Below, one piece after another: positions 34,936-51,151 of a stretch of DNA of 64,000 nucleotides; within the stretch, counting starts at the first letter, position 1; every line of letters begins with the position of its first letter. This stretch comes from Pirellulales bacterium (lineage in GTDB: Bacteria; Planctomycetota; Planctomycetia; Pirellulales; PNKZ01). Location: contig JASGKB010000022.1 in assembly GCA_049840675.1 (NCBI GenBank), forward strand, positions 78,320 through 142,319, in the 5' to 3' direction. The notes beneath the pieces are model-generated. The model did not search any database and was not told the origin of the DNA. It was given only the letters and a program-made list of their open reading frames with translations. Made by a program: the position numbers and the translations under genes.

Positions 34936-36857
34936 ATGCGGCGGGCGACGATCTTTTTTTGCGCGGTGATTTCGGCGGTTGTCGCCGGTTTTGAAGGTTC
35001 GGCCGCGCTGCGCAGCGGCCCTTTTGGCAGGCTCTGCCCGATGAAACCTTGGCCGTCGTGCGGTTGCCGGCGCTCAAGGAATTTTACGAAGCGCTGCGAA
35101 CGCGGACCAAGCTCGGCGTCGTGGCGTTCGAGCCGCGGCGCATCGAAGCGCTCAAGGAAATGCTCGTCGCCGACGCCAAGGACGACCTCGAAGCGATCGG
35201 CGCGGAGTTCAAAAAGCTCGGCCTCGAAGTCGACGACCTGTTGCCGCTGGCCGCCGGCGAAGTCGGGCTCGGCGTCTGGTTTCAGCCGCGCGACGACGGG
35301 CGGGCCACGCTGACTATCGCCGCTTGGAGCATGTGCGGCGAAGCCTCGGCCGAGAAACTTTTGGCCGCTCTGGAAAAAGGTTTCGAAGATCGTCTCAAGG
35401 GTGACCATCCGGCTCGGCGCGACGACGTCGAACTCGCCGGCGTCAACGTGAGGCATTTCATGTTGCCCAACTTTGTCGAAGCTCGCAGCGAAGCGAAGTT
35501 CGGGCTCGGCGTGAAGAACGGCGTTCCCAACGGCAACTTCCAAATCGCGCCGCGCGAGGGAGACGAGAAGAAGCAACAGACCCTGAACGGCTACAGCCAT
35601 CTGCTCGTGTGCCGCAGCGGCGATGCGCTCTTGGCCTTGGCCATTTCGCCGGAAGTCGCCGAGGGGGAGATGCCGGAAGCCGCGGCCGTCGAAGAGGCGC
35701 TGCAACGCGGGCGCGAAGCAGCGCGCGGTGCGCTTGTGCGTTTGTTGGAAGCTCGTGCAGGCGGCGGCGAAGGGCCGGTCGAGCGCTGGCTGCAAACGCC
35801 CGGCCTCGCGGCGGCGCTGCCCGAAGGGGTGCCGCTGGTCGAAGCCGAGATCCATCCGCGCGGCTTGGCGACGCTCTTAACGCGGCCCGAAGCCGCTGAA
35901 ACCCGCAAAATGCTCGACGCGCTAGGGCTCTCGGAAGTCGGGCCGTTCGCGTATCGCATGACGTTGGAAGGGACGACGCTGCGCAGCGGCTTCTTCATCG
36001 CGGCCCCGCAACCTCGCCAAGGTGTGCTCGCGCTCTTGGATCAACCGGCGCTGCCGCCGCAGGCCGCCGATTGGGTCGCCGGCGACGTCGTCGGCTATCA
36101 ACACTTGAGCATGGATCTGGGGAAGGCTTACACGCACGTCGGGGCGATCGTCGCCGGGCAATCGCAGAAGGCCAAGGAATCGCTCGCACAGATCGAAGCC
36201 CAATCGGAGCAGTTTTTGCAAATCTCGCCGGCCGCGCTGCTCAGTTCGCTCGGCACGAAGCACGTGGTGTTGAGCTTCCTTCCGGAAGCGGCGAAGAAGC
36301 CGGCCGACGGCGAAGATGCGACGCCGCCGCAAAACGCCATGGCGTTCGTCTGGCGCGTGAGCGACGAAGCTCTCTGGCGTCGGCTCATGGGCACCGCGGC
36401 GCTCGTCACGGGCCAGCCCGCGAAGGAAGAGCAGGGCTTCAGCGGCCTGCGTCACGAAACGCCCGAGTTCAGCGGCGGCTGGTTCCTGGGCGACGGCAAC
36501 ATGGTCTTGGCCTTCGGCAAAGGCGTGACCGAGCGCACGCTGGCGATGCTTCGCAATCCGCCGCGCGGGCCTGAGTCGCTGGCCGGCGGACCGCTCGCGC
36601 ACTGCGCCGCCGAGCTCGTCGCACCGCAGCCGGGCATCACGTACGAAATCACGAACGGCCCCTCGACGTTGCGATTTATCAACGACGCGATTCTCGAATC
36701 GCTCTCGAATCCCGACGACGAGAGCATGAAGAAGCTCAAAGAGGTCTGGCCGACGGCCGACGAACTCGAAGGGCTCATCGGCGTGAGCGCGGGCGTCACG
36801 CTCGTCGACGGCAACGGCCTGACGCACACCAGCGTCTCCGATCTGCCCGCTCCGTAG
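34936..36857 (+). CDS. hypothetical secreted protein (~640 aa); frameshifted just after signal peptide
   Basis: RBS ggaaggag, then ATG 34936 giving MRRATIFFCAVISAVVAGFEGSAA. At ~35000-35010 the reading moves to the frame of ORF 35049..36857 (AAQRPFWQALPDETLAVVRLPALKEFYEAL...). Confidence 0.55.
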
Positions 36858-37203
36858 TCGGCCCGGAAGGGCTTGGCCGGTCGTTTGCGGGCTCCGTGAA
36901 CGGCTGCGGGAGCCGGATCGGCGTCGAAAGGCGGTCCGGATCCTGGGGTACCGCTGCGCTTGGCCCCAGCCGTCCGGCTCTGCGCCCGCCGTCCGCCGCT
37001 CGATTTCGATCGATCGCCCCGCATCAGCGGCCTCGAAACGCGCTCCGCGCGGAAATTTTTTCCGCCGCCCCAAGCGCTCCCTCCTCAGGGTCCGAACGCC
37101 CAACCCCATCACTTAGTACTGTGCTAAAACGGGCGGTTTTTGCCGCAAAATCCGCACAGTTGGGCGTTTCTGCGGCGTCACGCGCCGAGCATCTACTTCA
37201 CAC

Positions 37204-37253
37204 GGAAATTCCCGTATCCGTTGTGGAATTCCGACAATTTCCCAAATTCCCCC
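37204..37253. promoter_or_regulatory. cluster of GGAA(A)TTCC-type palindromic/half sites
   Basis: ggaaattccc (37204-37213) and ggaattcc (37225-37232) have centres ~20 bp apart. Half-sites follow: aatttccc (37236-37243) and aaattccccc (37244-37253). The cluster lies immediately upstream of a TTGACA box. Confidence 0.4.
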
Positions 37254-37264
37254 AATTATCAAAG

Positions 37265-37293
37265 TTGACATAACCGGCACCGTGGAATATTTG
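37265..37293 (+). promoter_or_regulatory. candidate sigma70-type promoter
   Basis: Perfect TTGACA (37265-37270). Either tgg-AATATT (37286-37291, 15-nt spacer, extended -10-like) or TATTTG (37288-37293, 17-nt spacer). Confidence 0.35.
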
Positions 37294-37555
37294 TGGTTCT
37301 GTCAGAGGTTTGCGGGTTGTGCGGGTTCTGGCGAATCTGCGTAATTTCGGCCTCTGGTCGCTGCGGGGTTCGGCACAAACACCGCGACGACGTCAGGACA
37401 CGCGAGCAGGATTCGGGTCGGGGTGAGAGCCGACCGGACATCCGCGGAGAGAAGATCGGGAAGGCACGCCCGGTCGTCAAGCTCCGCCAGACCCGCGTCA
37501 AACCCTGCCGTCGCTCACGCGACACGGAGAGGGACGCTTCGTCGGAGAGAGAGCT

Positions 37556-37756
37556 GATGAAGACGGCCGGATTCGTGACGAGGACTTCTTCCTCAAGTGC
37601 CGTCGTTGGCGTCGAGCATCTCGGCGCCGTCACCCTGCAGCTTCAAGCGGCCGCGTGCGGCTTGACGGTTGGTGACAACGAGTCGTCGGCATTCGACCCG
37701 GGCACGGTCGGCTGCGAGAAGACTCACGTTCGATACACGCTCGGCCTGCGTTAGGC
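37556..37756 (+). CDS. candidate small ORF (66 aa), unknown function
   Basis: ggagagagagctgATGAAG mirrors the RBS/start of the next gene (ggagagagaaaATGAAG). Third-codon positions are mostly G/C (my count ~3/4). No family recognised. Confidence 0.3.
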
Positions 37757-37832
37757 CGGGTAGTCCGCATACCTCGACCCGTGTGTTACGGGCGGGGAGT
37801 TTTCGAGGTTCTTCATTTACTGGAGAGAGAAA

Positions 37833-38177
37833 ATGAAGGTTCTGAATCGTTTGTGGTCGGAAGAAGCCGGTGCGATCGTCTCGGCTGAAGTCATGTTGGT
37901 GATGTCGATCCTCGTGATCGGCGTGATCGTGGGCCTCGCCGCCGTTCGTGATTCGGTCATCACCGAACTCGCCGACGTCGCTCAAGCTCTGGCGAACATC
38001 AACCAATCGTACTCGTTCGGCACGGCCAGCGGTCACCACTCGCTGTCGGGCGGCGGCGCGTTCATCGACCTCGTCGATTTCTGCGACACGCTCACCGCGA
38101 CGACCGACGCCGGCAACTCGAAGTGCGTTTCGATTTGCACCGTCGCCGGCCCGGTCGCCGAAGTTCCGGCTCCGTAG
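37833..38177 (+). CDS. Flp-pilin-like N-terminus fused to a conserved unknown module (114 aa)
   Basis: MKVLNRLWSEEAG|AIVSAEVMLVMSILVIGVIVGLAAV resembles a Flp class-III signal/helix, but with E at +6. The downstream QSYSFGTASGHHSLSGGGAFIDL module is shared with 43642..44779. Confidence 0.6.
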   Translation: MKVLNRLWSEEAGAIVSAEVMLVMSILVIGVIVGLAAVRDSVITELADVAQALANINQSYSFGTASGHHSLSGGGAFIDLVDFCDTLTATTDAGNSKCVSICTVAGPVAEVPAP

Positions 38178-38223
38178 TCTGGTCTCACGCGGCGAGCTTA
38201 GCGTAGCCGTGTGAGAAAAATTT

Positions 38224-38270
38224 CGCAGGGGTCGAGAGAGCGAGTACGTTTTCTCGACCCCTCGCGTTTT
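38224..38270 (+). terminator. rho-independent terminator
   Basis: cgcaggggtcgagag (38224-38238) pairs with ttctcgacccctcgcg (38251-38266) with one bulge, followed by tttt. Confidence 0.7.
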
Positions 38271-38457
38271 GATCGGCTCGGCCGGTCGCCGGCCGAACGC
38301 TTCAAACCTACGAAGCGATCGGCGGTCCGTAACGCCGTCGATCGATTTCGTTCCGCAGGCCCTTTGGAGGCGTAAGCTTCCAAGGGGTCTTTGCATTGGC
38401 AGACGTTCGCACGTTCGCCGGCGCGAATACGCGAGCAACTCGGGCGATCCGCTTCCT

Positions 38458-38695
38458 CAGACACGCCCCTCAAATCTCAGACCCGTTTGGTCCCCTCGCC
38501 CCCGGCGCGACGGCGAGCGTTCGTCGACATGAATCGGGGGAGAGGGATAGGGTGAGGGGCCGGCCATTCTGATCGCGGAACGATGAACGACGACGTCAGG
38601 CCATTCCGTCGTTCCGCGTGCCGACTTCCGTGTCTCGCGCAGACCCCTCACCCCCGCCCTCTCCCCGCACGCGGGGCGAGGGAGCCAAACCGGTC
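38458..38695. repeat. repeat-rich structured intergenic region
   Basis: ggggagagggatagggtgagggg (38537-38559) is the near reverse complement of cccctcacccccgccctctcccc (38644-38666). Between them ggccattc occurs twice, and gcggaacga/tcgttccgc form an inner stem. Confidence 0.6.
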
Positions 38696-38826
38696 TTGCT
38701 GAAGTTCGACTTGATTAGCGGGCTTTCGACCGCCGGCCTGTCGGGCAATTCTGCTTGCTCCGCAGTTTACGAGAGGCATGGCCGCCGCGCCGTGCAAAGC
38801 GAGAGCGATCCGCCTGGACGACTCGT

Positions 38827-39306
38827 TCACTCCAGCACGAGAAACGCTTCGTCGCAGGCGAGATTGCGTTCGTCTGCGGGGGACGCTTGAATGCTGCGGA
38901 TCACGAATCCGCATTTTTGCAGAACCCGCAGCGACGCCCGATTGTCGCTCGCAACCTGGGCGTAAAGCGGACGAACCGGCACTTCGGCCAGCAGCAACTC
39001 CAGCGCTCGCGACGCGATCCCGCGCCCCCAGAATTCTCGCCCCACCCAGTACCCGACGAGGTGGAGCCCGTCACGTTGGAACACCGAAATGGAACCGGCC
39101 AACTGGTCTCCGACGTAAATCGCGCGGGCCGTGATGCCCGCGTCGGCCAGCACGTTGTTCCAGTGGATCGCGAACGCGTCGGCCCCGCGAGGGTTGGTCG
39201 CCGCGAGACGATTCGACTCCGGGTCGAGATTGAATTCGTACAACCTCGGCAAGTCGTCCGACGAGACTTCGCGAAGACAAACCTGATTCACGGCGAGCGG
39301 ATCCAT
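38827..39306 (-). CDS. GNAT-family N-acetyltransferase (RimJ/RimL-like)
   Basis: From ATG 39306: ...LREVSSDDLPRLYEF..., VGYWVGREFWGRGIASRALELLL, ASDNRASLRVLQKCGF. Confidence 0.8.
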   Translation of the reverse strand: MDPLAVNQVCLREVSSDDLPRLYEFNLDPESNRLAATNPRGADAFAIHWNNVLADAGITARAIYVGDQLAGSISVFQRDGLHLVGYWVGREFWGRGIASRALELLLAEVPVRPLYAQVASDNRASLRVLQKCGFVIRSIQASPADERNLACDEAFLVLE

Positions 39307-39332
39307 ATCAATACCTCGGCAACGCTGCACCG

Positions 39333-39695
39333 TTAGGAACCCGACTCAGGCAGCGATGCTTCGGAGAGGAAGGATGCTATCCGGCGGACGAGCGGTTCCG
39401 CATCGGGCGCTTTGGCCGTAACGGTGAAGCAAAGCCAATTGTCCCACGCGAGCTCCACGGTCGAACCGCCGATCGTAAAATCCCAATACATTTGGTCAAG
39501 CCCGACGACTAGCTCGGATACCGGCCTGAGGTCGAAGCGCTCGGCGATCAGCTTGCAAACTTGAGGAAACGCGGAAGAGCCGATATCAGCTCTGTCATGC
39601 ATCAGCCGGTCACTCGCATCTCGTGAATAACGTGGTTCCATTTCTGACGTCACGGCCGACGAAGAGTGAATCGGAACGGGTTGGCGGGAGTTCAT
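39333..39695 (-). CDS. hypothetical cytoplasmic protein (120 aa)
   Basis: ATG 39695 overlaps the stop of the upstream membrane gene (ATGA). ...VGLDQMYWDFTIGGSTVELAWDNWLCFTVTAK... No family recognised. The ORF-track start at 39878 is an Arg-rich over-extension. Confidence 0.5.
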   Translation of the reverse strand: MNSRQPVPIHSSSAVTSEMEPRYSRDASDRLMHDRADIGSSAFPQVCKLIAERFDLRPVSELVVGLDQMYWDFTIGGSTVELAWDNWLCFTVTAKAPDAEPLVRRIASFLSEASLPESGS

Positions 39696-40135
39696 GGACG
39701 TGAGTCGCAGTCGCTGGGAAGAACCGCAGGTTTGGAGAATCGCCACGCGAGTGCTGCTGCGGCGATGATTGCGCCGGCCTCGGATGCGAACGGGAATATC
39801 TCTCGTCGAGCGAACTTCAGCTCGACGACGACCAAGGCGATCAACGCCGCCGCCACCGGCGCCCAGGTGACGACCCAAGCGACTTGAATTCTGCGGCCGG
39901 CCGCTTGCTCACAGCTTATGAGTATCAGGCCGAAAGGGATTCCGACGAGAAAACCCCCGAGGCTAAACATCAGGTACCCGAGTTCAATGTCTTTGAAGCC
40001 GTGAAAATAGAAATCCGGCGTCTCGTGGTGAAACCAAACGTGAATTGCGACGGATTCCCGGACGATGCCGATGATCGCCCCTAGAAACGGGCCGAGAAAG
40101 AAGAAGCGAATCGCTTGCCGAACGTAGTCGCTCAT
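39692..40135 (-). CDS. hypothetical membrane protein (147 aa, ~4 TM)
   Basis: Hydrophobic segments FFFLGPFLGAIIGIV, LMFSLGGFLVGIPFGLILI, VVTWAPVAAALIALVVV and GAIIAAAALAW. Confidence 0.55.
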   Translation of the reverse strand: MSDYVRQAIRFFFLGPFLGAIIGIVRESVAIHVWFHHETPDFYFHGFKDIELGYLMFSLGGFLVGIPFGLILISCEQAAGRRIQVAWVVTWAPVAAALIALVVVELKFARREIFPFASEAGAIIAAAALAWRFSKPAVLPSDCDSRP

Positions 40136-40168
40136 AGGAACGGCCGTTGCGGCCGGCTTGCCCGCGGG

Positions 40169-40399
40169 TTACTTCTCTGCGGCGTTTCTCGGTCGGGCGA
40201 GGAGCAGCCAAGCGCCCAACACCATGGCCGCCGCTTCGACGAACGGCGCTGCGATGATGGCGACCCGCTCGTCGGGGCTGTAGTGCTGCAGGTCGGCAAG
40301 ATCTAAGTCGCCGGTCCAAAGCCAAATGTCAAACTCAAGCATCGCCCCGAATGACACGAGGAGTCCGGCGCCGATGCACCGCCGAAGCAAGGTCAGCAT
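40169..40399 (-). CDS. hypothetical small membrane protein (76 aa, 2 TM)
   Basis: IGAGLLVSFGAML and AAAMVLGAWLLLA. Starts 16 nt after the stop of the upstream gene. Confidence 0.45.
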   Translation of the reverse strand: MLTLLRRCIGAGLLVSFGAMLEFDIWLWTGDLDLADLQHYSPDERVAIIAAPFVEAAAMVLGAWLLLARPRNAAEK

Positions 40400-40415
40400 G
40401 GGCTACCAACTGAGA

Positions 40416-41265
40416 TTACGGCAACTTACCAAGTGCCAGTTTTGTCAGTTCGACGACCGGCGCTTTCAGTAGTTTGAACAAATCATGGACGTTTTCAACG
40501 GTGATATTTATGCGGTCTCCTAGAACTTCAAATGGAAATCCTTTTTTGCTCTTGGTCATTTGCTTTGCTGTCTCGGTCAGGTCTGTCGTCATCCTGCCAC
40601 CGTTATGCGCCAACGAATGCCGCACAGTCCTAGCCAGTCGCAATGTCACCGTACAAAAGTCGTTGTGTCGTACGGTGGTCGAACAGCGTCGTCAAATCCT
40701 TTGCAAGCTGCGGGGTATTAGCTTTGTACTCCGGTTCCCCTTTGACGATCTGTACGACATGCCTGATGTAGTTCTCATAGGAGAAGTACAATGCACTGTA
40801 AGACATCCTTTGAGAACCAATGATGCTACCGATGAAGTCATGGTTTTCGACAAGAAACATCCACTGCTCTTCAGCATTGAACGGCGTCTCTTTTGGTTCT
40901 AGTTTCGTTAGCTCTGCGGAATATCCTTCGATGTGCTTCCGCAGTTCAATCTCATTTACTTTAAGGCTCGGTATTTTTCTGAACAGATAGTTCAGAATGC
41001 TTCCCGCAATTTGTCCTGCCATCTCATACGGATTTGCTTTTTCGTAGACCGCCTTCCACATCTGATCAAGCGACCGGATGTAGACGTTTGGCATTGATGA
41101 AACCAATAATGTGCTGCGCCAATCTAGGTGCAGGTCAAAGGCGGCGTCGTGCAGCGCCGTTCTCTCTGCCAAGTCCGCAACTTGTTTTGCCCATTCGTTG
41201 TCCCAACAAAGCGCGTAGGCGTTGGGATTCAGATTGAAGAACACGTCCCGTGTGTCGCTGCTCAT
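40416..41265 (-). CDS. HEPN-like (Rx4H) protein, Abi/RiboL-PSP-HEPN-like; markedly low GC; frameshifted
   Basis: ORF 40630..41265 (MSSDTRDVFFNLNP...RMSYSALYFSYENYIRHVV...RLLYGDI) continues at ~40640-40655 in the frame of ORF 40416..40649 (...LRLARTVRHSLAHNGGRMT...). RHSLAH is an Rx4H motif near the C-terminus. Confidence 0.45.
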
Positions 41266-41384
41266 TGTCTATTCCTTCGGCTGACTGATTAGACCAAAGA
41301 CAATCGCAGTTCAGAAATGGTTCGATGACCGACGTGTAGTGCTTTTTGCCGGTATTTACTGCCCCATCCGCTTTCAATGAAGAA

Positions 41385-41495
41385 GGGTAGCCCAGGTTGC
41401 TCGCCAACCTGGGCGAAGTGAGAGGCTTGTTGAGATTTCACACCGGAAATTTTCGGCCTCTTGTAAACCCAGGTTGCGAGCAACCTGGGCTACCC
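41385..41495. repeat. ~110-bp nested palindrome
   Basis: gggtagcccaggttgctcgccaacctggg (41385-41413) versus cccaggttgcgagcaacctgggctaccc (41468-41495). Each arm is itself a hairpin (cccaggttg...caacctggg). Inner pair: gagaggc/gcctctt. Confidence 0.8.
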
Positions 41496-41526
41496 ACTTC
41501 TTACAGGCTATTCGCTGCCGCTGCGG

Positions 41527-42597
41527 TTACAGCACTTTGTCTTTCAGGCCGGGGAAGGCTTTGCCTACTTTGTTGAGGAGGTAGTCGCCGTAGGTGCCTT
41601 GGAAGATGTGGACGCTGGATTTGTCCCAGCGGGTGCCGCGGTCGTCGGGGGCCGTTTCGCCGGAGGGGAGTTCGATCGGGCGGACGTCGGCGAAGAAGTT
41701 GGGGTCGAAGAAGAAGGGAAACGACAAGCGGTGGCGGTTCGTGAGGTTGCGAACCCGATGCGGCGTCGAGCGGTAGACGCCGCGCGTCATGCGGTCGAGC
41801 ATGTCGCCGATGTTGCAGATGAACGAGTTTGCCAGCGGCGGCGCGGCAACCCATTGCGAGCGCGACTTCACTTCGAGCCCGCCGACGTCGTCTTGTAAGA
41901 GAATGGTCAGCAGACCGTAGTCGGTGTGTTCGCCGACTCCCCACAGTTCGGCCGACGACGGCGGCGGGTAGTTGAAGATGCGAAACAACGTCAGCGGATC
42001 GCGCGTGCCGTGATCCGCGAAGTAATGTTCGGGTAGGCCGAGCCCAAGCGCGATGCCGGCGAGTAAGGAATGGCCGAGCTTGGTGAGGGCGGCCATGTAC
42101 TGGAGGACCGTGGCGCGAAGTTCGCCCGGATGTTCGGGGAAGAGATTCGGGCCGTAGAGCGGCGTGCCGGATTGCACCAGCGGATGGTCGGCCGCGGTTT
42201 CTTGTCCGAAGTAGACGCCCTCTTTCTGATCGGGAAGGCCCGAGGTCAGTTCGTCGCCGACGCGAAAGTAGCCGCGCCACGCTTTGCCGCCGCGGCTCAT
42301 TTCGATCTGCATTTTCTCGGCGACGGGACGCGCGAAGAACTCGCGGGCTTGCGCGAGCAGCCGGTGTTGTAAGTCGGCGTCGACGCCGTGCCCGACGACG
42401 TAGAAGAAGCCGCTTTCGCGACAGGCCGTGTTGAGCTGAGCGGCCGTTTGGTGCTTAGCGGCGGCGTCTGCGACGTGCGGCGCTGTAATTGGCGACGGGG
42501 CGAGCAGCGGCGCAGTGGTAACCGGCGCTGTGATAACCGGTGCGGCGAGCAGCGGGGAGACGTCGATGATCGGGATGGCGGAGAAGTCTGCGCTCAT
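41527..42597 (-). CDS. 2OG-Fe(II) oxygenase (isopenicillin-N-synthase family)
   Basis: From ATG 42597: MSADFSAIPIIDVSPLL..., ACRESGFFYVVGHG, GVGEHTDYGLLTILLQDD, YRSTPHRV. ATG 42606 is an alternative start. The first 148 codons of the ORF-track model are spurious. Confidence 0.85.
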   Translation of the reverse strand: MSADFSAIPIIDVSPLLAAPVITAPVTTAPLLAPSPITAPHVADAAAKHQTAAQLNTACRESGFFYVVGHGVDADLQHRLLAQAREFFARPVAEKMQIEMSRGGKAWRGYFRVGDELTSGLPDQKEGVYFGQETAADHPLVQSGTPLYGPNLFPEHPGELRATVLQYMAALTKLGHSLLAGIALGLGLPEHYFADHGTRDPLTLFRIFNYPPPSSAELWGVGEHTDYGLLTILLQDDVGGLEVKSRSQWVAAPPLANSFICNIGDMLDRMTRGVYRSTPHRVRNLTNRHRLSFPFFFDPNFFADVRPIELPSGETAPDDRGTRWDKSSVHIFQGTYGDYLLNKVGKAFPGLKDKVL

Positions 42598-42730
42598 GCG
42601 GGTCATCCTACCAGGAAAGCCTGCGCCGGGGCTGTTGAAGTCGCCCGAGGGGCGGCGGATAATCCGCGGCGGTTTGTTGCCGGCTGTTGTTATGGCGTTG
42701 CTCGTCCTTTTATATGTGCGAGGTTTTGCT

Positions 42731-43329
42731 ATGTCTCTGCGAGTCGCGGTTGCGGGCTTGCTCTTCGGGTTGGTTGCTTGCGGCGTCGGCGCGGCGGCGG
42801 AGTATAAAGACCCGCAAGGTTTTCGAGTGACGTACCCCGACGGTTGGACGAAGATCACGAAAGAGGATTTGGCGAACGAAGACGCGCTGCCGAAAGAGTT
42901 TCGGGAGTGGATCCAGGAGAGCAAGATCGACCTGACGCGCATCAGCGTGGTGGTCGTTCGCGACGGCGAAGAGGGGGAGGCGTTTCGCGAGAGCTTGAAC
43001 GTGGTGGTGATCGCAGACGAGCTGCCGCTCGATAGCCGCACGATCGGACAAGTGGGGGACTTGATTAAAGTGCAGCTGGAGAAGACGGCGCGAAGATCGA
43101 AATGAGCGCGCGCGAAATGCGGAGCTACGGCAAGAACGAAGCCGGGGTGCTGGAGTTCGACGCGGACCTGCCGGGCATCGAGGTTCCGCTCAAGCAGCGG
43201 CAGGCATTCTTCGTCGGCGGCGGGAAGTCTTACGTGGTGACGTGCACGGCCGTGAGGAAAGACTTCGAGAAGTACTCGGCGAAGTTCGACGAGATGTTGA
43301 AGAGCTTCGTCGTGCCCTTAGCTAAATAA
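42731..43329 (+). CDS. lipoprotein, PsbP/DUF1795-like; frameshifted
   Basis: ATG 42731: MSLRVAVAGLLFGLVAC (lipobox LVAC), then YKDPQGFRVTYPDGWTKI. At ~43081-43086 (gagaagacggc) the reading passes to the frame of ORF 43102..43329 (...EDGAKIEMSAREMRSYG...). Confidence 0.5.
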
Positions 43330-43477
43330 GCGCGGGAGCGAAAACTGCGTAAAACCGCGGATAACCGTAGCGCGGAGGTATTCAGACCGTGAAGCTAAGG
43401 ATTTTTGACGGTCGCGCGCGAAGGAGTGAAGAGACGGCGGCGAGAGGAAGGAAGCGAGAGGCGTCCGTCGGAGGAAA

Positions 43478-43514
43478 CAAAAAAGGCGACGGCGAACTTT
43501 CGTTCGCCGCCGCC
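43478..43514 (-). terminator. rho-independent terminator of the Flp-like/LRR gene
   Basis: Minus strand reads ggcggcggcgaac-gaaa-gttcgccgtcgcc followed by ttttttg. Confidence 0.75.
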
Positions 43515-43641
43515 GTGTCGGAACGACTCGGAGAGAGATGAGTCGCCCGACGTTTGATCCCTGCCGGCCGCCGGTCGGGTGGCACAATACCCGACCGACG
43601 ACCCGTTGAGAATTCTCCGCCGGAGAGAGAAAGGAGAGAGA

Positions 43642-44779
43642 TTAGCGGATCACTCTCAACGTTGGCAAAGCTTTGCGTAGCCGATGGAGACCTTCGTCGC
43701 TCACGGCGGTGCCGCGAACTTCGAGTTCTTCGAGCTTCTTCAAACCGACGAGGTGCTTCAGGCCTGCGTCAGTGATGTTCGTACCGATCAGGTGGAGGAA
43801 TCGCAGGTTGGGCAACTCGGCGATTTCCTTCAGGCCCGCGTCGGTGATCTGGGTGTCGATCAGGTAGAGCGACTTCGAGCTGTTGGAGCTCGGCGACGTA
43901 GCTCAGACCTTTATCGGTGACGTTCGAGCCGAGAATGTGCAGGCACTTCGCGGTCTTGAACTTCTCGATGTCTTTCAGTTCGGCGTCGCCCACTTTGGCG
44001 AAGCCCAGATCAATGGTGTTCCAGCGCGGTTCGCCGCGGTGATACACCGCCGGGCCGGCCGGAGCGATGCCGATGATCGCCGGAGCATCCACGACGACCG
44101 GAGCCGTGACCGGAGCGTAGTTCGGGTCCGTGATGCCGTAGCGGTTGCGGAGGAACTCGTGGTAGCCGGACGCCGGGCCGATGTAACCGCTCGGCGGCAG
44201 GTTATTGAAGTAACCTTCGGGGACGTCGACGACGTACGGTTCGCCGTGAACTTGGTGCGGGACCGCGTGATGCGGCACGGCATGGTGCGGACCGTGAACC
44301 GGCGGCTGGCCGGTGACCACGCCCTTGGGGCCGTGTTCGCGGACGGTGATCGCCGCGGCCGGCGCCGTCGTCGCGGAGAGAGGTGCGACGACGGCTGCCG
44401 GACCGGCGTGCGGTACGGGGTGATGACCGTGAGGGAGAACTTGGCCGTCGCGGCCGAAGACGTCGGAGCAGACGAGCGGTCGGCCGACCGGCTGTTGAAC
44501 GTACTGTTGCAGCGGCGGGACGTCGGGGCGGTCGGCCCGATCGAAGAACGCGCTGCCGGCGGTATAGGAGCAGTGACCGGAGACGCCGGAGATGTAGTAG
44601 CTCTGATCCATCGAACCGATCGCCTTAGCGACGTCGTTCAGTTCGGTGTTCATCGTGTCGCGGACGGCCGTGTAACCGGCGCCGACGCCGATCACGCCCA
44701 TCGTGCCGTACATCACTAGCTCGCTCGAGACGACGTAGCCGTCGTCGTCGCGCCACAGATCATTCAACGTGCGTAACAT
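43642..44779 (-). CDS. Flp-like N-terminus + shared unknown module + His/Pro-rich spacer + C-terminal leucine-rich repeats; frameshifted
   Basis: RBS aaggag, ATG 44779: MLRTLNDLWRDDDG|YVVSSELVMYGTMGVIGVGAG...QSYYISGVSGHCSYTAGSAFFD. At ~43868-43878 (an extra base in ctcgaagtcgctc) the frame changes to SLYLIDTQITDAGLKEIAELPNLRFLHLIGTNITDAGLKHL...LRVIR*, with stop at 43642. That last segment is not in the ORF track. Confidence 0.65.
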
Positions 44780-44982
44780 GGGAATTCTCCTTCTCTCTTT
44801 CTCTTGGGCACAGGCCCCGACGGCGTCAGGCACGACGCCGCGGCGGGGCAGCGAAAACATTCGCGTCGGACAAGAGCAACTATCGCGAGCCGAAAGTGGG
44901 CGAACTACAGGAGGCGAGTGGGTGCGAAGGTGAGGCGCTGGTGAAGGTAGGGCTAGGCGTGCGAGGATGCATCGCAGCCGCT

Positions 44983-45879
44983 TCACACCGGCTGGTCGAG
45001 TTCGCCGCTCGCGAGCCACTCCGGTTTCCAGATCGTCCAGAAGTCGCAAGCGAGGCGTTCTTCGACGTAGCGATACGGCAGCCGGCCGCAACCGGCTTCG
45101 CCCCACGCGGGGCCGAAGGGTGCGCGAACCAGCAATGCTCCTTTGGTCGAGCGCACGCGATAGGCGTCGTCGTAGCCGACGATCACCAAGGCCGAACCGA
45201 CGGAAGTCGTGTCGTGCTTGGTCGGGTAGCCGATGTCGCCGGTCGCGGAGTCGACGACGTCGGGCAGGGCCGCACCGCACGCGACGGCGAACCCGGCCGC
45301 AAGGCACGCTTTGAGCGACTTCAGCACGTCTGCGCCGGAAGCGCTCGGCGGATCGAGACGAGCGTAGCGCAGTTCGAGATAGTCGCGTTGAAAGCCGAAT
45401 GCGAACGGGTCGGGCGTGTTGCCGCGGAAGATCGCGGACGTCGGGCAGAATCGCTCCGGCGGGCAGCCGAAGCGCCCGAGAGCGTGCAACGTGGTACGTA
45501 GCCCGGCGCCGACGTTTCCAGTGATTCCGGCCAGTTTGCGGGCCGCTTCATAGAGAAACCCGACCGACGGTTGCGCGGCCCGGCCGAGCGTGCGGCGCTC
45601 GAAGTATTGCACGAGCGTCGCGACGGCGGCGGCGGCCGAAGCTGCCGCGGGATACGGTCCGCTGGCCGGCAGCAGATACTCGCGCGAGTTTGTTTCGGCA
45701 GGGAGCGCCGCTCGCGCCGTTCGCCGCCGGCGCAACTTGCGCAAGGTTTCGCGAACCGCAGGATCTTCGAGCGTGAGATCGCGAACGTCAGGCAAATCGC
45801 GCAAGAGCCCGACGTCGTCGCCGGGTGAAGCGTCGAGCGGTGCGAATTCGTGCGAAGGCGCGTGCGGCGTGAAGGGCAT
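44983..45879 (-). CDS. papain-like (C1-family-like) protein, apparently catalytically dead
   Basis: Family-like blocks: ...FLYEAARKL...GAGLRTTLHALGRFG..., SALVIVGYDD, ALLVRAPFGPAWGEAGCGRLPYRYV. The expected QxxxGSC, GGHA and NSWG positions read PAAASA, VGSA and APFG. Confidence 0.5.
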   Translation of the reverse strand: MPFTPHAPSHEFAPLDASPGDDVGLLRDLPDVRDLTLEDPAVRETLRKLRRRRTARAALPAETNSREYLLPASGPYPAAASAAAAVATLVQYFERRTLGRAAQPSVGFLYEAARKLAGITGNVGAGLRTTLHALGRFGCPPERFCPTSAIFRGNTPDPFAFGFQRDYLELRYARLDPPSASGADVLKSLKACLAAGFAVACGAALPDVVDSATGDIGYPTKHDTTSVGSALVIVGYDDAYRVRSTKGALLVRAPFGPAWGEAGCGRLPYRYVEERLACDFWTIWKPEWLASGELDQPV

Positions 45880-46235
45880 GGTCCGTTACCCAGCTTTGAG
45901 CGTCGAGAATCGTGGCGGTCTTCGTTCGTCCGTGTGCCGCACGCATCAGGCGAATGGGGGCAGGTCGCTCTCGATCGACCTACCGTCGCCCGACGATTGC
46001 CGGTGAACTGCGCCCAAGGATCATGGGAAAACCCTGTTTCGGCCGGCCAAGCTCTGGTGAAGGTCTGGTGAAGCTGTGGTGAAACCGCGGCATCGGAAAG
46101 TCTGCGAATTTGTTTTGACCCCTGTTTGCGTCGGGCTGCGATGCGGGACATTTGACAACCCACAACATGCGCCGGACGATGACGGGCATCAGATCCGGCC
46201 GCATTCGCGGTCGACAATTCATCGGGAGCCGCAGC

Positions 46236-47636: not shown

Positions 47637-50600
47637 ATGTTGGCTCGCTTCTTCGTCGATCGCCCGATTTTCGCCTGGGTGATTTCGATCGTCATCGTGG
47701 TCATTGGCGCCGTCGCGGCATTGGTGCTGCCGGTCGCTCAATACCCGGACATCACGCCGCCGACCGTGCAAGTCACGTGTACTTATCCGGGCGCGAATGC
47801 GCAAGTCGTGGCCGATTCGGTCGCCGCGCCGATCGAGCAGCAGGTCAACGGCGTCGAGCGAATGATGTATATGTCGTCGCAATGCACGAACGACGGCGCG
47901 TACAACCTGACGGTGACCTTCGAACTCGGCACCGATCTCAACATGGCGCAGGTCTTGGTGCAGAATCGCGTGCAACTGGCCATGCCGCAACTGCCGCAGC
48001 AGGTTCAAGTGCAGGGCGTCTCGACCAAGAAGCGCTCCCCCAGCATCTTGCTGGTGGTGAATCTCATCTCGCCCGACCAACGTTACGACGATCTCTATCT
48101 GAGCAACTACGCCACGATCCAGGTTCGCGACGAACTCCTGCGGCTCGACGGCGTAGGCGACGTGAACTACCTCGGCCAGCGCGATTACAGCATGCGCATC
48201 TGGCTCGACCCGAGCGAGATGGCCAACCGCGACCTCACGGCTTCGGACGTCGTAAAAGCGATCCAAGCGCAGAACGTGCAAGTGGCCGCGGGCCAGATTG
48301 GCCGGCCGCCCATCGCCGACGGACAACAGTTTCAACTCACGATGAGCACGCTCGGTCGGCTCGCCAACACCGATCAATTCGGCGACATCATTCTCAAGAC
48401 GACGCAAACGACCGACAACGAAGGGAAGACCTCGACGCAAATCGTCCGCGTGCGCGACGTGGGCCGCATCGAGCTGGGCGCCCAGCAATACGACCAGATC
48501 TCTCGGCTCGACGGTCGTGCGGCTGTCGGTTTGGCCGTGTTTCAATTGCCCGGCTCCAACGCCCTGGAAACCGCCGAAGCCGTGAAGGCGAAGATGGAAG
48601 AGCTGAAGAAGGGTTTTCCGGCCGGCGTCGACTACGCGATCGTCTACGACACGACGCCGTTCATCGAGCAATCCGTCGAGGAAGTCTTCAAGACGTTGCG
48701 CGACGCGGTGATTCTCGTGGCCATCGTCGTGTTGCTCTTCCTGCAGGATTGGAAGGCGATGATCCTGCCGATGATCGACGTGCCGGTGTCGCTCGTCGGT
48801 ACGTTCGCCGTCATGGCCGTGATGGGGTTCACGCTCAATAACCTGACGCTCTTCGGCTTGGTGCTGGCCATCGGCATCGTGGTCGACGATGCGATCGTCG
48901 TGCTGGAAAACATCGAGCGCCTGATGGCCACCGGCCTCAATGCGCGCGATGCGACAATCAAGGCGATGGACGAAGTCACCGGGCCGATTTTGGCGATCAC
49001 GCTCGTGCTCTGCTCGGTGTTTTTGCCCTGCGCGTTCATTCCGGGCATCAGCGGCCAATTCTTCCGGCAGTTCGCACTGACGATCGCCGCCTCCATGGTC
49101 ATCTCGGCCATCAACGCGATGACGCTCACGCCGGCCCGCGCCGTGACGATCTTTAAGGGTCAAGAGAAAGCCCACGCCGCCGGAGCCGACGCAAATGCGC
49201 ACCACGATGACCATCGCGAAGCGTTGCCGTGGTGGATTTTCGTCATCGTCATCGGGTATGCGTCGTACGTCTATCTCGGCCCGCTCTACCGCGAAGGTCT
49301 CACGCACTTCCTGACGGAAAATTTTTCCATCTCGCAGCGCATCGCCGGTTATTTGGTGATGCTGCTCTTGGTGTTGCCTGGAGCGATCGGCATCGTCGGC
49401 AAGGTGGCGATCAAGCCGATCAACCGCGGGCTCAGCAAGTTCTTCAAAGCGTTCAATCGCGCCTTTGATCGCATCGCCGAGATCTACGGCCGCACGGTCG
49501 CGGGTCTCGTGCGCGTCGGCGCGATCGTGATGCTCGTTTACGGCGGGCTGCTCTTCTGCACGTATTGGTCGATGTCTACCGCCCCCACTGGCTTTATTCC
49601 GCTGCAAGATCAAGGCTATCTGCTGGTCAACGTGCAACTCCCCGATAGCGCCAGCGTCGAACGCACGAGCGAAGTGCTCCGCAAGCTGGAGCGTTTCTGC
49701 CTGGGCGACGACTCCGGCAAGTATTTCGGTAAGCCGGTCCTGCCGGGCGAGAAAAAGTACGAAGGCGTGCCGGGCGTGGCGCATACCAACGCCGTCGCCG
49801 GCCAATCGTTCTTGCTCAGCGCCAACGGTTCGAACTTCGGCAGTTGCTTCGTGATTCTCGAGCCGTTCGCGAAGCGCCACGGACACGAAACGTACGACGA
49901 AACCGTCGCCCAAAAAATTCGCGCGTTCGCCGCCGAAGAGTTGGACGAAGCCGTGGTGACGGCCTTCCGCGCGCCTCCGATTCAAGGACTCGGTACGTCG
50001 GGCGGCTTCAAGTTCCAAGTCGAACAGCGCGGCACGTTCGATTTGCCCGAGCTCCAGCGCACGACCGACGAAATCACCGCCGCCGCCAATAAAGATCCGC
50101 GGATCGTCGGCGCGTTTTCGCTGTTCCGCGCTCAAACTCCGCAGCTCTACGTCGATATCGATCGCACGAAATGCGAAGCCCTCGGCGTGGACCTGACCGA
50201 AACGTTCAACACGTTGCAGGTCTACATGGGAGGCATGTACGTCAACTTGTTCAACCAGTTCGGGCGGACTTGGCAGGTGAACGTCTTGGCCGACCAAAAG
50301 TTCCGTGCCGACGCGAAGACCCTCAAGCAACTCAAGGTCCGCAGCCGCAGCGGCGAAATGGTGCCGCTCGGGTCGATCTGCAAGGTGGAAGACAAGGGCG
50401 GCCCCGTGATGGTGATGCGGTACAACACGTACCCTTCGGCCGCCGTGAATCTCAACGCGGCCCAAGGGGTGAGCTCCGGCGACGTGCTGGCGATCGTCGA
50501 CAAGCTGGCCTACGACAACGGCGCACGTACGAGTGGACCGAAATCATGTACATGCAGATCCAGGCCGGCAACGTGGCGCTGTTCGTCTTCGCCCTCGGCA

Positions 50601-51151
50601 CGTTCCTCGTGTACCTCGTACTCGCGGCGAAGTATGAAAGTTGGCAATTGCCGGCGGCCGTGATTTTGGTCGTGCCGATGTGCTTGCTCTGCGCCGTCTG
50701 CGGCATGCTCATTGCGCACTTGCCGATCGATATCTTCGTGCAGATCGGGTTCCTCGTGCTCATCGGCTTGGCGGCGAAGAATGCAATTCTCATCGTGGAG
50801 TTTGCCGAGCAGTTGCGCAACCTCGAGGGGCACGGGCTGCGGACTGCGATCGTCGAGGCTTGTCGGTTGCGCTTACGGCCGATCATCATGACGTCGTTCG
50901 CCTTCATCCTCGGCGTGGTTCCGCTGATCTTAGGCCATGGTGCAGGCGCTGAAATGCGCGTCTCGCTCGGCACGGCCGTGTTCAGCGGCATGATCGGCGT
51001 GACGTTCTTCGGCATCTTCCTCACGCCCGTGTTCTACTACGGCATTATGCGGCTGAAGGGCATTCCGCCGGACGTGCCGAAAGCCGCGGCCGTGCCGACG
51101 CCGCAGACCGTCGCCCCTGCGCCTCCGCCTAGTCCGCCCGCTCAACACTGA
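47637..51151 (+). CDS. efflux RND transporter permease (AcrB/HAE1-like); frameshifted
   Basis: MLARFFVDRPIFAWVISIVIVVIGAVAALVLPVAQYPDITPPTVQV.... At ~50520-50530 the reading passes to the frame of ORF 50171..51151 (...TYEWTEIMYMQIQAGNVALFVFALG...AAKNAILIVEFAEQ...). Confidence 0.9.

What the first reader, a model, noticed from the sequence alone, without database searches (positions are those of the whole stretch)
37833..44779. Two convergent paralogues with a Flp-pilin-like N-terminus and a shared novel module; one is fused to a His/Pro-rich spacer and LRRs
P1 (37833-38177) and P2 (43642-44779, minus strand) align over ~80 aa:
- P1: M..LN.LW.(E/D)..G|..VS.E.VM....(V)IGV..G..AVRD....EL.DVA.A......QSY...G.SGH.S...G.AF.D
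- P2: same pattern

The N-terminus resembles the Flp class-III signal, a G followed by a hydrophobic helix. However, the conserved Glu is at +6 in both proteins, rather than the usual +5 in G/xxxxEY. Both proteins are also much longer than the 50-70 aa typical of Flp pilins.

P2 continues with HHPVPH/PHHAVPHHAVPH repeats and four ITDAGL-type LRRs. The last LRRs are only visible after correcting a frameshift. A pilin-like anchor displaying an LRR domain is not an architecture I know. No tad/cpa assembly genes or prepilin peptidase lie in the window. Both genes have strong RBSs and their own rho-independent terminators, so they look expressed.
Basis: partly seen in the sequence, partly recalled or inferred. 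Interest (0 to 1): 0.65.

Follow-up and report, generated by a model that had tools for sequence, protein, structure and literature searches.

The report
Extended Flp-type pilins, one carrying LRRs
Two neighbouring genes belong to a large, unannotated planctomycete family of Tad/Flp-like pilus subunits with an extra head domain; one is fused to a leucine-rich-repeat binding domain and so probably places an adhesin on the pilus.

Summary
P1 (37833-38177, +) and P2 (43642-44779, -) share 44% identity over 85 aa (E 1e-22). P2 continues into a His/Pro-rich linker and 4-5 LRRs, interrupted by one extra A at 43874/43875. About twenty intact orthologues (375-410 aa) keep the same architecture. Two other genes within 8 kb are also frameshift-split, so the break is most likely an assembly error.

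The shared module defines a large Planctomycetota family: 2884 clusters at 50% identity, with no Pfam or NCBIfam model. Its N-terminus is (K/R)LWx(D/E)ExG|(A/F)xxSxE. Gly, or rarely Ala, sits at -1 and Glu at +6.

The family aligns to the 61-aa Flp pilins of planctomycete tad loci (hhalign 97.7%, E 2.5e-12) with exactly one extra residue between Gly and Glu. In 6 of 12 MAGs sampled, a family member lies beside cpaA (Peptidase_A24), cpaB, cpaF, tadB and tadC. One of these MAGs is a close relative of the source organism.

The P1/P2 convergent pair, together with a catalytically dead papain-like gene upstream of P2, is conserved in at least seven other genomes.

Best reading: these are Tad-type pilins with a small Cys-containing head, and P2 is a modular LRR-bearing minor pilin. 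This is a new variant of a known kind. Processing and assembly are untested.

The parts
37833..38177 (+). P1: 114-aa extended Flp-type prepilin. It has a leader M1-G13, a hydrophobic helix with Glu19 (+6), and a C-terminal head module with Cys84/98/102.
   Evidence: ORF. 307 homologues at 60-98% identity. Family conservation. AF2 helix 11-54 with pLDDT 88-96. 113/114 aa identical to the L008 orthologue despite 21 nt differences.
37833..37871 (+). P1 leader peptide, MKVLNRLWSEEAG, ending in the putative prepilin-peptidase Gly(-1).
   Evidence: In 241 short family members, position -1 is Gly in 231 and Ala in 8, and nothing else. Glu at +6 is found in 236 and Asp in 3.
38227..38262 (+). Hairpin 50 nt downstream of the P1 stop; a probable terminator with a weak T-tail.
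   Evidence: Inverted repeat I10: 16-nt arms, 4-nt loop. The hairpin is conserved in L008.
43874..44779 (-). P2, 5' part: Flp-type prepilin module (aa 1-85), a conserved RPLVC(S/A)DVFG motif, a His/Pro-rich linker, and the first LRRs.
   Evidence: ORF. BLASTP to P1 E 1e-22. tblastn with the L008 orthologue: aa 1-317 map to 44779-43874 in frame -1. Orthologue alignment.
43874..43875 (-). Frameshift: one extra A (GAAG where the orthologues have GAG).
   Evidence: MAFFT DNA alignment with L008 and L011. This is the only indel that is not a multiple of 3.
43642..43873 (-). P2, 3' part: the last three LRR units and the stop codon, in the -2 frame.
   Evidence: Pfam LRR_6/LRR_4 hits. tblastn aa 319-393 map to 43869-43645, 87% identity. 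AF2 LRR pLDDT 90-98 in the orthologue.
43485..43514 (-). Terminator-like hairpin (13 bp, 10 GC) followed by TTTTTTGTTT, downstream of the LRR tail.
   Evidence: Its position after the LRR tail agrees with a full-length P2 transcript.
44983..45879 (-). 298-aa xylellain-like papain-fold protein lacking the catalytic Cys/His/Asn. It lies directly upstream of P2 in every P2 locus.
   Evidence: Present in all 11 P2 loci. Profile against PDB 3ois_A gives E 8.7e-22, with the catalytic positions substituted. No Pfam or NCBIfam hit.
35049..36857 (+). 602-aa conserved protein of unknown family, upstream of and co-oriented with P1.
   Evidence: 67% identical to the L008 orthologue. Clustered in 6 loci. 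No Pfam or NCBIfam hit.
38398..43475 (.). About 5.1 kb of strain-specific cargo between the convergent P1 and P2 genes: GNAT, small membrane proteins, 2OG-Fe(II) oxygenase, and a frameshifted PsbP-like gene. It is not part of the conserved module.
   Evidence: blastn synteny with L011 and L008, which have only 403-455 bp here. Pfam hits. GC falls to 0.544.

Best explanation
P1 and P2 are prepilins of a planctomycete-specific branch of the Flp (Tad, type IVc) pilin superfamily.

**Shown:**
- Both share an 85-aa module made of a short leader ending in (D/E)ExG, a hydrophobic helix with a near-invariant Glu, and a conserved amphipathic continuation.
- The module is homologous to the 61-aa Flp pilins of planctomycete tad loci, with one extra residue between the Gly and the Glu.
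- Paralogues of P1 are the pilin genes of tad loci (cpaA-cpaB-tadE/G-cpaF-tadB-tadC), including in a close relative of this organism.

**Inferred:**
- A CpaA/TadV-type aspartic prepilin peptidase cuts after Gly13. The CpaF-driven Tad machine encoded elsewhere in the genome then polymerises the mature protein through its N-terminal helix.
- Unlike classical Flp, which is all-helical and 50-80 aa long, P1 carries a roughly 55-residue C-terminal head (QSY...SGHH...F.D..DFCD...KCV.IC). A probable Cys84-Cys98 disulfide would decorate the filament surface.
- P2 is a modular minor pilin. It has the same polymerisation module, then a roughly 200-residue disordered His/Pro-rich tether, then a 5-unit LRR domain. 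The pilus would present the LRR as a ligand-binding adhesin, at the tip or sporadically along the shaft.
- The conserved convergent P1/P2 arrangement, with a dead papain-like partner upstream of P2, suggests one functional unit: structural subunit, adhesin subunit and accessory factor.
- The frameshift in this copy of P2 is most likely an assembly indel error.
For: - **Paralogy.** E 1e-22.
- **Family size and conservation.** 2884 clusters at 50% identity. Position -1 is only Gly (231) or Ala (8), and +6 is Glu (236) or Asp (3), in 241 members. From my own knowledge of Strom and Lory's PilD mutagenesis, Ala is the only substitution prepilin peptidases tolerate at -1.
- **Homology to Flp.** hhalign against 62 short planctomycete Flp proteins gives probability 97.7%, E 2.5e-12, over 57 columns with a single 1-residue gap between Gly and Glu. 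16 of those 62 hit PF04964 below threshold.
- **Tad context, L043.** TadG, TadE, Flp, TadE, four tandem P1-like genes, Peptidase_A24 (E 9e-20), RcpC/CpaB (E 4e-20), T2SSE (E 1e-62) and two T2SSF genes.
- **Tad context, other loci.** The same gene set flanks the family member in L029, L030, L033, L035 and L041, and Pfam confirms it for L030. L030 comes from the MAG that also holds the 98%-identical P1 orthologue. No other Flp-like gene is found in those loci.
- **Structure.** AF2 predicts a long N-terminal helix at high confidence in P1. For the P2 orthologue it predicts a helix, a disordered linker and a confident LRR.
- **Intact orthologues.** About 20 P2 orthologue clusters are intact, and LRRs recur in divergent long members.
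- **Conserved pair.** The P1/P2 pair is conserved in L006, L008, L011, L012, L023, L025 and L038.
- **Purifying selection on P1.** There is 1 amino-acid change against 18 codons with only synonymous changes, while neighbouring genes are 67-79% identical.
- **Frameshift as artefact.** The PsbP-like gene and the RND pump gene nearby are also split.
Against: - Neither P1 nor P2 lies next to tad genes, and none occur in the 64-kb window.
- There is no Pfam Flp_Fap or NCBIfam prepilin hit at E <= 1-10.
- Direct hhalign against Caulobacter PilA is not significant (E 0.14). Even the short planctomycete Flp family reaches only E 2e-4 at 45% probability.
- Glu at +6 and Ile/Leu/Val instead of Tyr break the canonical G/XXXXEY motif. 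TadE and Flp in the same L043 locus keep Glu at +5.
- The head domain is modelled with only moderate to low confidence (pLDDT 44-69), and no fold match was found.
- A 200-residue disordered tether is unusual for a pilin module.
- No secretin gene was seen in the tad loci examined.
- Cleavage, export and polymerisation are all untested.
Confidence: 0.65

Rival explanations
1. The proteins are pilin-derived but not filament subunits. They would stay as uncleaved or cleaved type II signal-anchored inner-membrane proteins. P2 would hold its LRR domain in the enlarged planctomycete periplasm as a receptor or scaffold, and P1 would be a small membrane partner.
For: - P1 and P2 are never next to tad genes in the eight P1/P2 loci examined.
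- The canonical G/XXXXEY spacing is broken.
- P2 has a very long disordered tether.
- The conserved partner of P2 has no obvious signal sequence.
- There are many paralogues per genome, 4-7 or more.
Against: - A near-invariant acidic residue inside the hydrophobic helix and a Gly/Ala-only position before it are hallmarks of prepilin processing and assembly. They are not features of plain anchors.
- Close paralogues with the same +6 Glu are the only pilin-like genes of complete tad loci.
- Pilin genes are commonly unlinked from their machinery (own knowledge; compare KilP in PMC12075869).
Confidence: 0.2
2. They are subunits of a short periplasmic pseudopilus (endopilus) of a Tad-like secretion or uptake device, rather than of an external adhesive pilus. 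The LRR protein would act as a cargo or ligand adaptor.
For: - The tad loci seen (L030, L043) show no secretin gene within the stretch examined.
- Planctomycete fibres and crateriform structures have been linked to macromolecule uptake (PMC5394234).
Against: - Only 20-kb pieces were examined, so a secretin may be encoded elsewhere.
- CpaB/RcpC, which forms the periplasmic conduit for pilus extension (PMC12307814 abstract), is present.
- Nothing here tests filament length or location.
Confidence: 0.1
3. P2 is a genuine pseudogene in this organism. The frameshift would be real, leaving a 336-aa pilin-plus-linker without most of the LRR domain.
For: The deposited MAG protein (P0121, QM775_29135) is the same truncated 336-aa product. 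No reads are available to check.
Against: - It is a single-base insertion with both flanks otherwise intact and 80-87% identical to the orthologue.
- The terminator lies after the LRR tail.
- Two more genes within 8 kb are also split by frameshifts: the PsbP-like gene and an RND pump that is 93% identical to its orthologue on both sides. This points to systematic indel error.
Confidence: 0.15

Closest known systems
Flp/Fap pilins of Tad (type IVc) pili, e.g. Caulobacter PilA (PDB 8u1k), Aggregatibacter Flp1, Myxococcus KilP
   Same: - Short leader ending in (D/E)-E-x-G.
- Hydrophobic N-terminal helix with a conserved Glu.
- Paralogues encoded beside a CpaA/TadV-type A24 peptidase, CpaB, CpaF, TadB and TadC.
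- Profile homology to tad-locus Flp of planctomycetes.
   Different: - Glu is at +6, not +5, and Tyr is replaced by Ile/Leu/Val.
- Length is 100-125 aa rather than 50-80 aa.
- There is an added non-helical, Cys-containing C-terminal head.
- There is no PF04964 hit and no significant direct match to PilA.
- P1 and P2 themselves lie outside tad loci.
Modular type IV pilins (Streptococcus sanguinis PilB with vWA and PilC with lectin; CofB; Raynaud et al. 2021, PMC8179133)
   Same: An N-terminal pilin module carries a C-terminal ligand-binding module for display by the filament. P2 follows this logic with an LRR module.
   Different: - Those pilins have the IPR012902 N-methylation motif, a full alpha/beta pilin fold and a short linker.
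- P2 has a Flp-type module, a roughly 200-residue disordered His/Pro-rich tether and an LRR.
- I did not see an LRR among the most frequent modules named in the passages I read.
Tad pilus tip complexes of TadE/TadF/TadG-like minor pilins (KilL/M/N 'Tips', Herrou et al. 2025, PMC12075869)
   Same: Tad pili are functionalised by minor pilins that expose variable C-terminal domains. Extra pilin gene clusters sit away from the core tad locus.
   Different: - Tips are built from TadE/F/G-fold pseudopilins with beta-rich globular domains that form heterotrimers.
- P2 is a paralogue of the Flp-like major-type subunit.
- P2 is paired with a pseudo-protease rather than with TadE/F/G homologues.
Xylellain (Xylella fastidiosa papain-like cysteine protease, PDB 3ois), for the P2-linked 298-aa gene
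   Same: Profile match E 8.7e-22 over about 250 residues, including the pro-region.
   Different: The catalytic Cys, His and Asn positions are replaced in most members, so it is probably a pseudo-enzyme.

Membership tests
Flp/Fap pilin family (Pfam PF04964; Tad/type IVc pilins) | Match to the family model at or above its gathering score | tested here: not met
   No PF04964 hit for P1, P2 or 25 family members, even at E <= 10. Only 4 of 25 give weak PF16982 Flp1_like hits (E 0.034).
Flp/Fap pilin family (Pfam PF04964; Tad/type IVc pilins) | Processing motif G/XXXXEY: Gly at -1, Glu at +5, Tyr at +6 | tested here: not met
   Gly(-1) is present, but Glu is at +6 and is followed by Ile/Leu/Val/Met. 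This holds in 236 of 241 members.
Flp/Fap pilin family (Pfam PF04964; Tad/type IVc pilins) | Small (50-80 aa), entirely alpha-helical | tested here: not met
   P1 is 114 aa and P2 is about 378 aa. AF2 predicts a helix at 11-54, then short strands and coil.
Flp/Fap pilin family (Pfam PF04964; Tad/type IVc pilins) | Homology to pilins encoded in bona fide tad loci | tested here: met
   hhalign against 62 short planctomycete Flp proteins, including the L043 tad-locus Flp: probability 97.7%, E 2.5e-12. The link onward to PF04964 or PilA is only sub-threshold.
Flp/Fap pilin family (Pfam PF04964; Tad/type IVc pilins) | Gene linked to the prepilin peptidase (A24) and the CpaB/CpaF/TadB/TadC machinery | tested here: inconclusive
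   Met for paralogues in L029, L030, L033, L035, L041 and L043. Not met for P1 or P2 themselves, nor anywhere in the window.
Flp/Fap pilin family (Pfam PF04964; Tad/type IVc pilins) | Leader cleaved by TadV/CpaA and subunit polymerised into a pilus | not testable with these tools
   Needs N-terminal proteomics, peptidase co-expression, and filament purification or cryo-EM.
Type IV pilins with the prepilin N-terminal cleavage/methylation motif (TIGR02532 / IPR012902) | G|(F/M)xxxE motif recognised by the NCBIfam/TIGRFAM model | tested here: not met
   No NCBIfam hit for P1 or P2 at E <= 1. 64 of 241 members have Phe at +1, but Glu stays at +6.
Modular pilins (pilin module plus grafted functional module) | N-terminal pilin-type module followed by an independent, recognisable domain | tested here: met
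   P2 and about 20 orthologue clusters have the shared module, a linker and an LRR (Pfam LRR_6/LRR_4; AF2 pLDDT 90-98). That the N-module functions as a pilin is inferred.
Leucine-rich repeat domain (P2 C-terminus) | Tandem 24-aa LxxLxLxxTxITDxGL units forming a solenoid | tested here: met
   Pfam LRR_6 reaches 26.7 bits, above its 23.4-bit cutoff. Five to six strand-helix units are modelled at pLDDT above 90 in P0122.
Papain-like cysteine peptidase C1 (298-aa neighbour) | Fold-level homology plus the catalytic Cys-His-Asn triad | tested here: not met
   Homology to xylellain 3ois is met (E 8.7e-22). The triad positions are Ala/Thr, Ala/Ser/Pro and Ala/Thr in most members, and Cys is kept only in L023 and L025. 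It is therefore not an active member.

The most novel reading that the evidence does not exclude
The P1 family would be the long-sought subunit of a planctomycete-specific surface fibre, for example the pili that emerge from crateriform structures and bind polysaccharide. It would be built by a Tad-like machine but with a different helix register (Glu+6) and a head domain, making it a structurally distinct class of type IV filament. P2 would be its LRR ligand-capture subunit, assisted by a pseudo-protease chaperone.
Probability: 0.15. Interest if true: 0.8.

Novelty: new variant of a known kind. Interest (0 to 1): 0.55.

Why it matters
- **A departure from the Tad pilin definition.** Tad pilins are defined as tiny, all-helical subunits with a strict G/XXXXE(Y) motif. 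Here a very large family (thousands of clusters) breaks both rules: one extra residue before the Glu, and an added Cys-containing head. Yet it sits in the pilin slot of tad loci.
- **A test of what the motif does.** The family offers a natural experiment on what the Glu5 register and the prepilin-peptidase site really require.
- **A new modular pilin.** It extends the 'modular pilin' idea to Flp-type subunits, with an LRR as the grafted module.
- **Candidates for planctomycete fibres.** It supplies concrete candidate genes for fibres whose subunits are not identified in the planctomycete papers I read.
- **An annotation gap.** The family is currently labelled 'hypothetical protein' and has no Pfam or NCBIfam model, so an HMM would improve annotation of Planctomycetota genomes.

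Tried and rejected
- **Family libraries.** Pfam and NCBIfam scans of P1, P2 and family members found no pilin family.
- **Solved structures.** A PDB sequence-profile search with the family gave only SRP54 noise (E 0.3). The short-Flp profile gave no PDB hit. Foldseek of the P1 model against PDB gave nothing below E 4.
- **Direct comparison with PilA.** hhalign of the family against Caulobacter PilA was not significant.
- **ATPase regex.** A Walker-A regex for T2SS-E ATPases in the flanks returned nothing, but it was too strict and missed the real CpaF genes. tblastn with the L043 proteins superseded it.
- **Abundant neighbours.** The abundant neighbour clusters PQQ beta-propeller and DUF1501/PSCyt were dismissed as generally common planctomycete families.
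- **Small gene between P2 and P1.** It is not conserved between the window and L008.
- **RNA in the region.** There are no tRNA genes anywhere in the window and no Rfam families in 37000-46000.
- **Programmed frameshifting.** Rejected: there is no slippery site, the orthologues are in frame, and other genes nearby are also broken.
- **Look-ups that failed.** P0007 and P0121 were not on record in the contig index.
- **Literature.** Searches found no description of this family or of Flp-LRR fusions.

Full report
**1. The observation**

P1 is a 114-aa ORF at 37833-38177 (+). It has a GGAGAG ribosome-binding site 5 nt upstream of the ATG. P2 starts at the ATG at 44779 (-), behind an AAGGAG site, and reads 336 codons to a stop at 43769.

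BLASTP of the two proteins gives 37/85 identities (44%), no gaps, E 1e-22. Both begin with a short leader ending in acidic residues and Gly: EEAG in P1 and DDDG in P2. A hydrophobic stretch follows, with a Glu six residues after the Gly. After the shared module, P2 has a His/Pro-rich segment.

The last LRRs of P2 lie in another frame, ending at the stop at 43642. They hit Pfam LRR_6 (E 4.7e-6) and LRR_4 (E 6.2e-6). The description is therefore accurate.

**2. The frameshift**

DNA alignment of P2 with its orthologues in L008 and L011 shows one extra A in the window: CTCGAAGTC against CTCG-AGTC, at 43874/43875. Every other indel is a multiple of three.

tblastn with the intact 393-aa L008 protein covers aa 1-317 in one frame (80% identity) and aa 319-393 in the next (87% identity). 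A strong hairpin with a T-run lies about 130 nt after the LRR-tail stop, at 43514-43485.

The database holds the same truncated 336-aa product from an NCBI MAG (P0121, Pirellulales QM775_29135), so the window is probably that assembly. About twenty orthologue clusters of 375-410 aa, at 46-79% identity, cover the corrected P2 end to end with LRR Pfam hits.

Two other genes nearby are also split:
- The two ORFs of a PsbP-like gene, when joined, match PF01789 over positions 5-155 of 155 at 28.1 bits.
- The RND pump is 93% identical to its 1169-aa orthologue on both sides of a frame change at about 50526.

I conclude that the LRR fusion is real and conserved. The break in this copy is most likely an assembly indel error. 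Without reads, a very recent mutation cannot be excluded.

**3. The family**

P1 has 307 word-index homologues of 100-125 aa at about 58-98% identity over roughly 90% of its length. Every one that carries an organism name comes from Planctomycetota MAGs. None has a precomputed Pfam domain. NCBI calls them hypothetical, and IMG calls some 'Flp pilus assembly pilin Flp'.

An exhaustive HMM search with a 136-sequence alignment finds 2884 clusters at 50% identity with E <= 1e-3, and 1738 with E <= 1e-10.

Conservation across 241 short members:

| Position (P1 numbering) | Residues observed |
|---|---|
| Gly13 (-1) | Gly 231, Ala 8, nothing else |
| +1 | Ala 162, Phe 64 |
| Glu19 (+6) | Glu 236, Asp 3 |
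| Glu45 | invariant |
| Asp48, Gln58 | nearly invariant |
| Cys84 | 86% |
| Cys98 | 84% |
| Cys102 | 63% |

The consensus is (K/R)LWx(D/E)ExG|(A/F)(I/V)(V/I)S(A/S/T)E(I/L)(M/V)L...IGVIVGL..VRD.V.TEL.DVA.A....NQSY...G.SGHH......F.D..DFCD......KCV.IC.

Genomes hold at least 4-7 copies, sometimes in tandem arrays of four or five (L018, L021, L043).

P1 is under very strong purifying selection. Against the L008 orthologue, 21 nucleotides differ but only one amino acid does. The flanking genes are 67%, 76% and 79% identical at the protein level.

**4. Is it Flp-related?**

Family libraries say no directly:
- There is no PF04964 hit and no NCBIfam prepilin model.
- No PDB sequence or fold match was found.
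- hhalign of the family against Caulobacter PilA gives E 0.14. The mature PilA sequence I used was checked against PDB 8u1k.

The link came from context. Locus L043, a 706-kb Pirellulaceae contig, carries a Pfam-verified tad locus. In order it contains:
1. A TadG-like gene (PF13400).
2. TadE.
3. A 61-aa Flp with canonical G|SVFVEY (PF04964, E 0.0098).
4. A second TadE.
5. Two unknown genes (552 aa and 409 aa).
6. Four tandem P1-family genes.
7. Peptidase_A24 (E 9e-20).
8. RcpC/CpaB (E 4e-20).
9. CpaF (T2SSE, E 1e-62).
10. TadB and TadC (T2SSF).

tblastn with these proteins shows the same machinery directly beside the family member in L029, L030, L033, L035 and L041. The A24 peptidase lies within about 600-1100 bp. 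Pfam confirms the set for L030. That is 6 of the 12 MAGs sampled.

L030 belongs to MAG UWPOB_PLAC3, the same MAG that holds the 98%-identical P1 orthologue and its P2 partner (L011). A close relative of the source organism therefore has a tad locus whose pilin gene is a P1 paralogue. In L029, L030, L033 and L041 no other Flp-like gene was found.

The 61-aa Flp defines a family of 57-75-aa proteins in Pirellulales and Planctomycetaceae genomes, including cultured Bremerella. 16 of 62 members hit PF04964 below threshold. The family reaches E 2e-4 (45% probability) against PilA.

Profile-profile comparison of this short family with the P1/P2 family gives 97.7% probability and E 2.5e-12 over 57 columns. 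There is exactly one gap, placed between the Gly and the Glu.

The +6 Glu is therefore a one-residue insertion specific to this family. The short Flp and the TadE proteins of the same L043 locus keep Glu at +5. The tad-linked paralogues keep Glu at +6.

**5. Structure**

AF2 on P1 with the family alignment gives mean pLDDT 72.9:
- A helix at 11-54 with pLDDT 88-96.
- Short strands at 60-77 with pLDDT about 68.
- A disordered tail.

AF2 on the P2 orthologue P0122 gives the following:
- A helix at 12-55.
- A small hairpin.
- About 200 residues with pLDDT below 50. Conserved islands sit within this stretch: RPLVCADVFG, SKGV and VDVPEGYFN.
- An LRR solenoid at 270-393 with pLDDT 90-98.

Other long family members also end in LRRs.

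**6. Locus architecture**

The convergent P1/P2 pair is conserved in L006, L008, L011, L012, L023, L025 and L038. The two genes are usually only 250-800 bp apart.

In the window, about 5.1 kb (38398-43475) of unrelated cargo lies between them. It encodes a GNAT, small membrane proteins, a 2OG-Fe(II) oxygenase and the PsbP-like gene.

Every P2 orthologue is preceded by a gene of about 290-300 aa (window 44983-45879). Its profile matches xylellain, a papain-like protease (PDB 3ois, E 8.7e-22). The catalytic Cys, His and Asn positions are substituted in most members, so it is probably a pseudo-enzyme.

P1 is preceded by a conserved 602-650-aa protein with no known family.

**7. Interpretation**

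The best-supported reading is that P1 and P2 are Tad-type (Flp-superfamily) prepilins. A CpaA/TadV-type peptidase would process them, and a Tad machine encoded elsewhere would assemble them.

P1 would be a structural subunit with an added, probably disulfide-stabilised, head. P2 would be a modular minor pilin that presents an LRR binding domain on a long tether.

- **Shown:** the homology, the context of the paralogues, the conservation pattern, and the conserved architecture and synteny.
- **Inferred:** the cleavage site, export, polymerisation, the tip or shaft location of P2, and any role of the pseudo-papain.

The main rival is a pilin-derived membrane anchor that never polymerises. A periplasmic pseudopilus is a second alternative.

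**8. Comparison with known systems**

Classical Flp pilins are 50-80 aa, fully helical and carry G/XXXXE (PMC12075869). Caulobacter Tad pilins lack a globular domain (PMC11067988 abstract).

Modular pilins are documented for IPR012902-type pilins (PMC8179133). Tad tips are formed by TadE/F/G-like minor pilins with variable domains (PMC12075869).

I found no description of Flp-type pilins with a head domain, a +6 Glu or an LRR module, nor of this family in planctomycetes. The subunits of the planctomycete crateriform fibres are not identified in the papers I read.

**9. Verdict**

This is a real, conserved and unannotated family. I class it as a new variant of a known kind. Interest is moderate to good (0.55). 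Confidence that these are Flp-superfamily prepilins is about 0.8. Confidence in the full mechanistic statement is about 0.65.

Noticed in passing
window 42515-43329 (+) and 47637-51103 (+): Two further genes are split by single frameshifts. A PsbP-like gene is split into ORFs 42515-43105 and 43102-43329. The RND efflux pump changes frame at about 50526, and both halves are 93% identical to an intact 1169-aa orthologue. This suggests systematic indel errors in the assembly.
   Followed up: partly
window 44983-45879 (-): A 298-aa papain-fold (xylellain-like) protein has its catalytic Cys, His and Asn replaced. It always lies immediately upstream of P2 orthologues. It has no obvious signal peptide, and its role is unknown.
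   Followed up: partly
window 38398-43475: About 5.1 kb of cargo with a GC dip to 0.54 is inserted between the convergent pilin genes. It is absent in close relatives. In L006 a different cargo (TPR protein, methyltransferase, GT2) occupies the same position.
   Followed up: partly
window 38477-38563: An 86-bp element is 81-86% identical to copies at unrelated positions in L011 (362-446) and L008 (16378-16464). It is a dispersed intergenic repeat next to the cargo boundary.
   Followed up: no
window 30396-31385 (+): A second LRR protein has repeats 31-41% identical to the P2 LRR domain. It lacks the pilin-like N-terminus.
   Followed up: no
window 37236-37832 and 38316-38380: A long non-coding stretch upstream of P1 is conserved with L008 and L011, and the last 30 nt before the ATG are identical. 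A near-identical block lies about 140 nt downstream of P1. These may be regulatory or UTR elements. There are no Rfam hits.
   Followed up: no
L043 5362-8253; L030 10382-13617 (also L029, L033, L041): Two conserved genes of unknown family always follow the tad-linked P1 paralogue: a multi-pass membrane protein of about 550 aa and a protein of about 409 aa. They have no Pfam or NCBIfam match. They are candidate pilin-modifying or accessory factors.
   Followed up: partly
P0006, P0007, P0064, P0079, P0089 (C-termini); P2 orthologue linkers: Some P1 paralogues have Gly/His-rich tails ending in Trp. The P2 linkers contain His-rich runs, and the head has a conserved SGHH motif. This hints at metal binding or pH sensing.
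   Followed up: no
L030 and L043 (tad loci): No secretin gene was seen between cpaB and cpaF or elsewhere in the 20-kb stretches examined.
   Followed up: no
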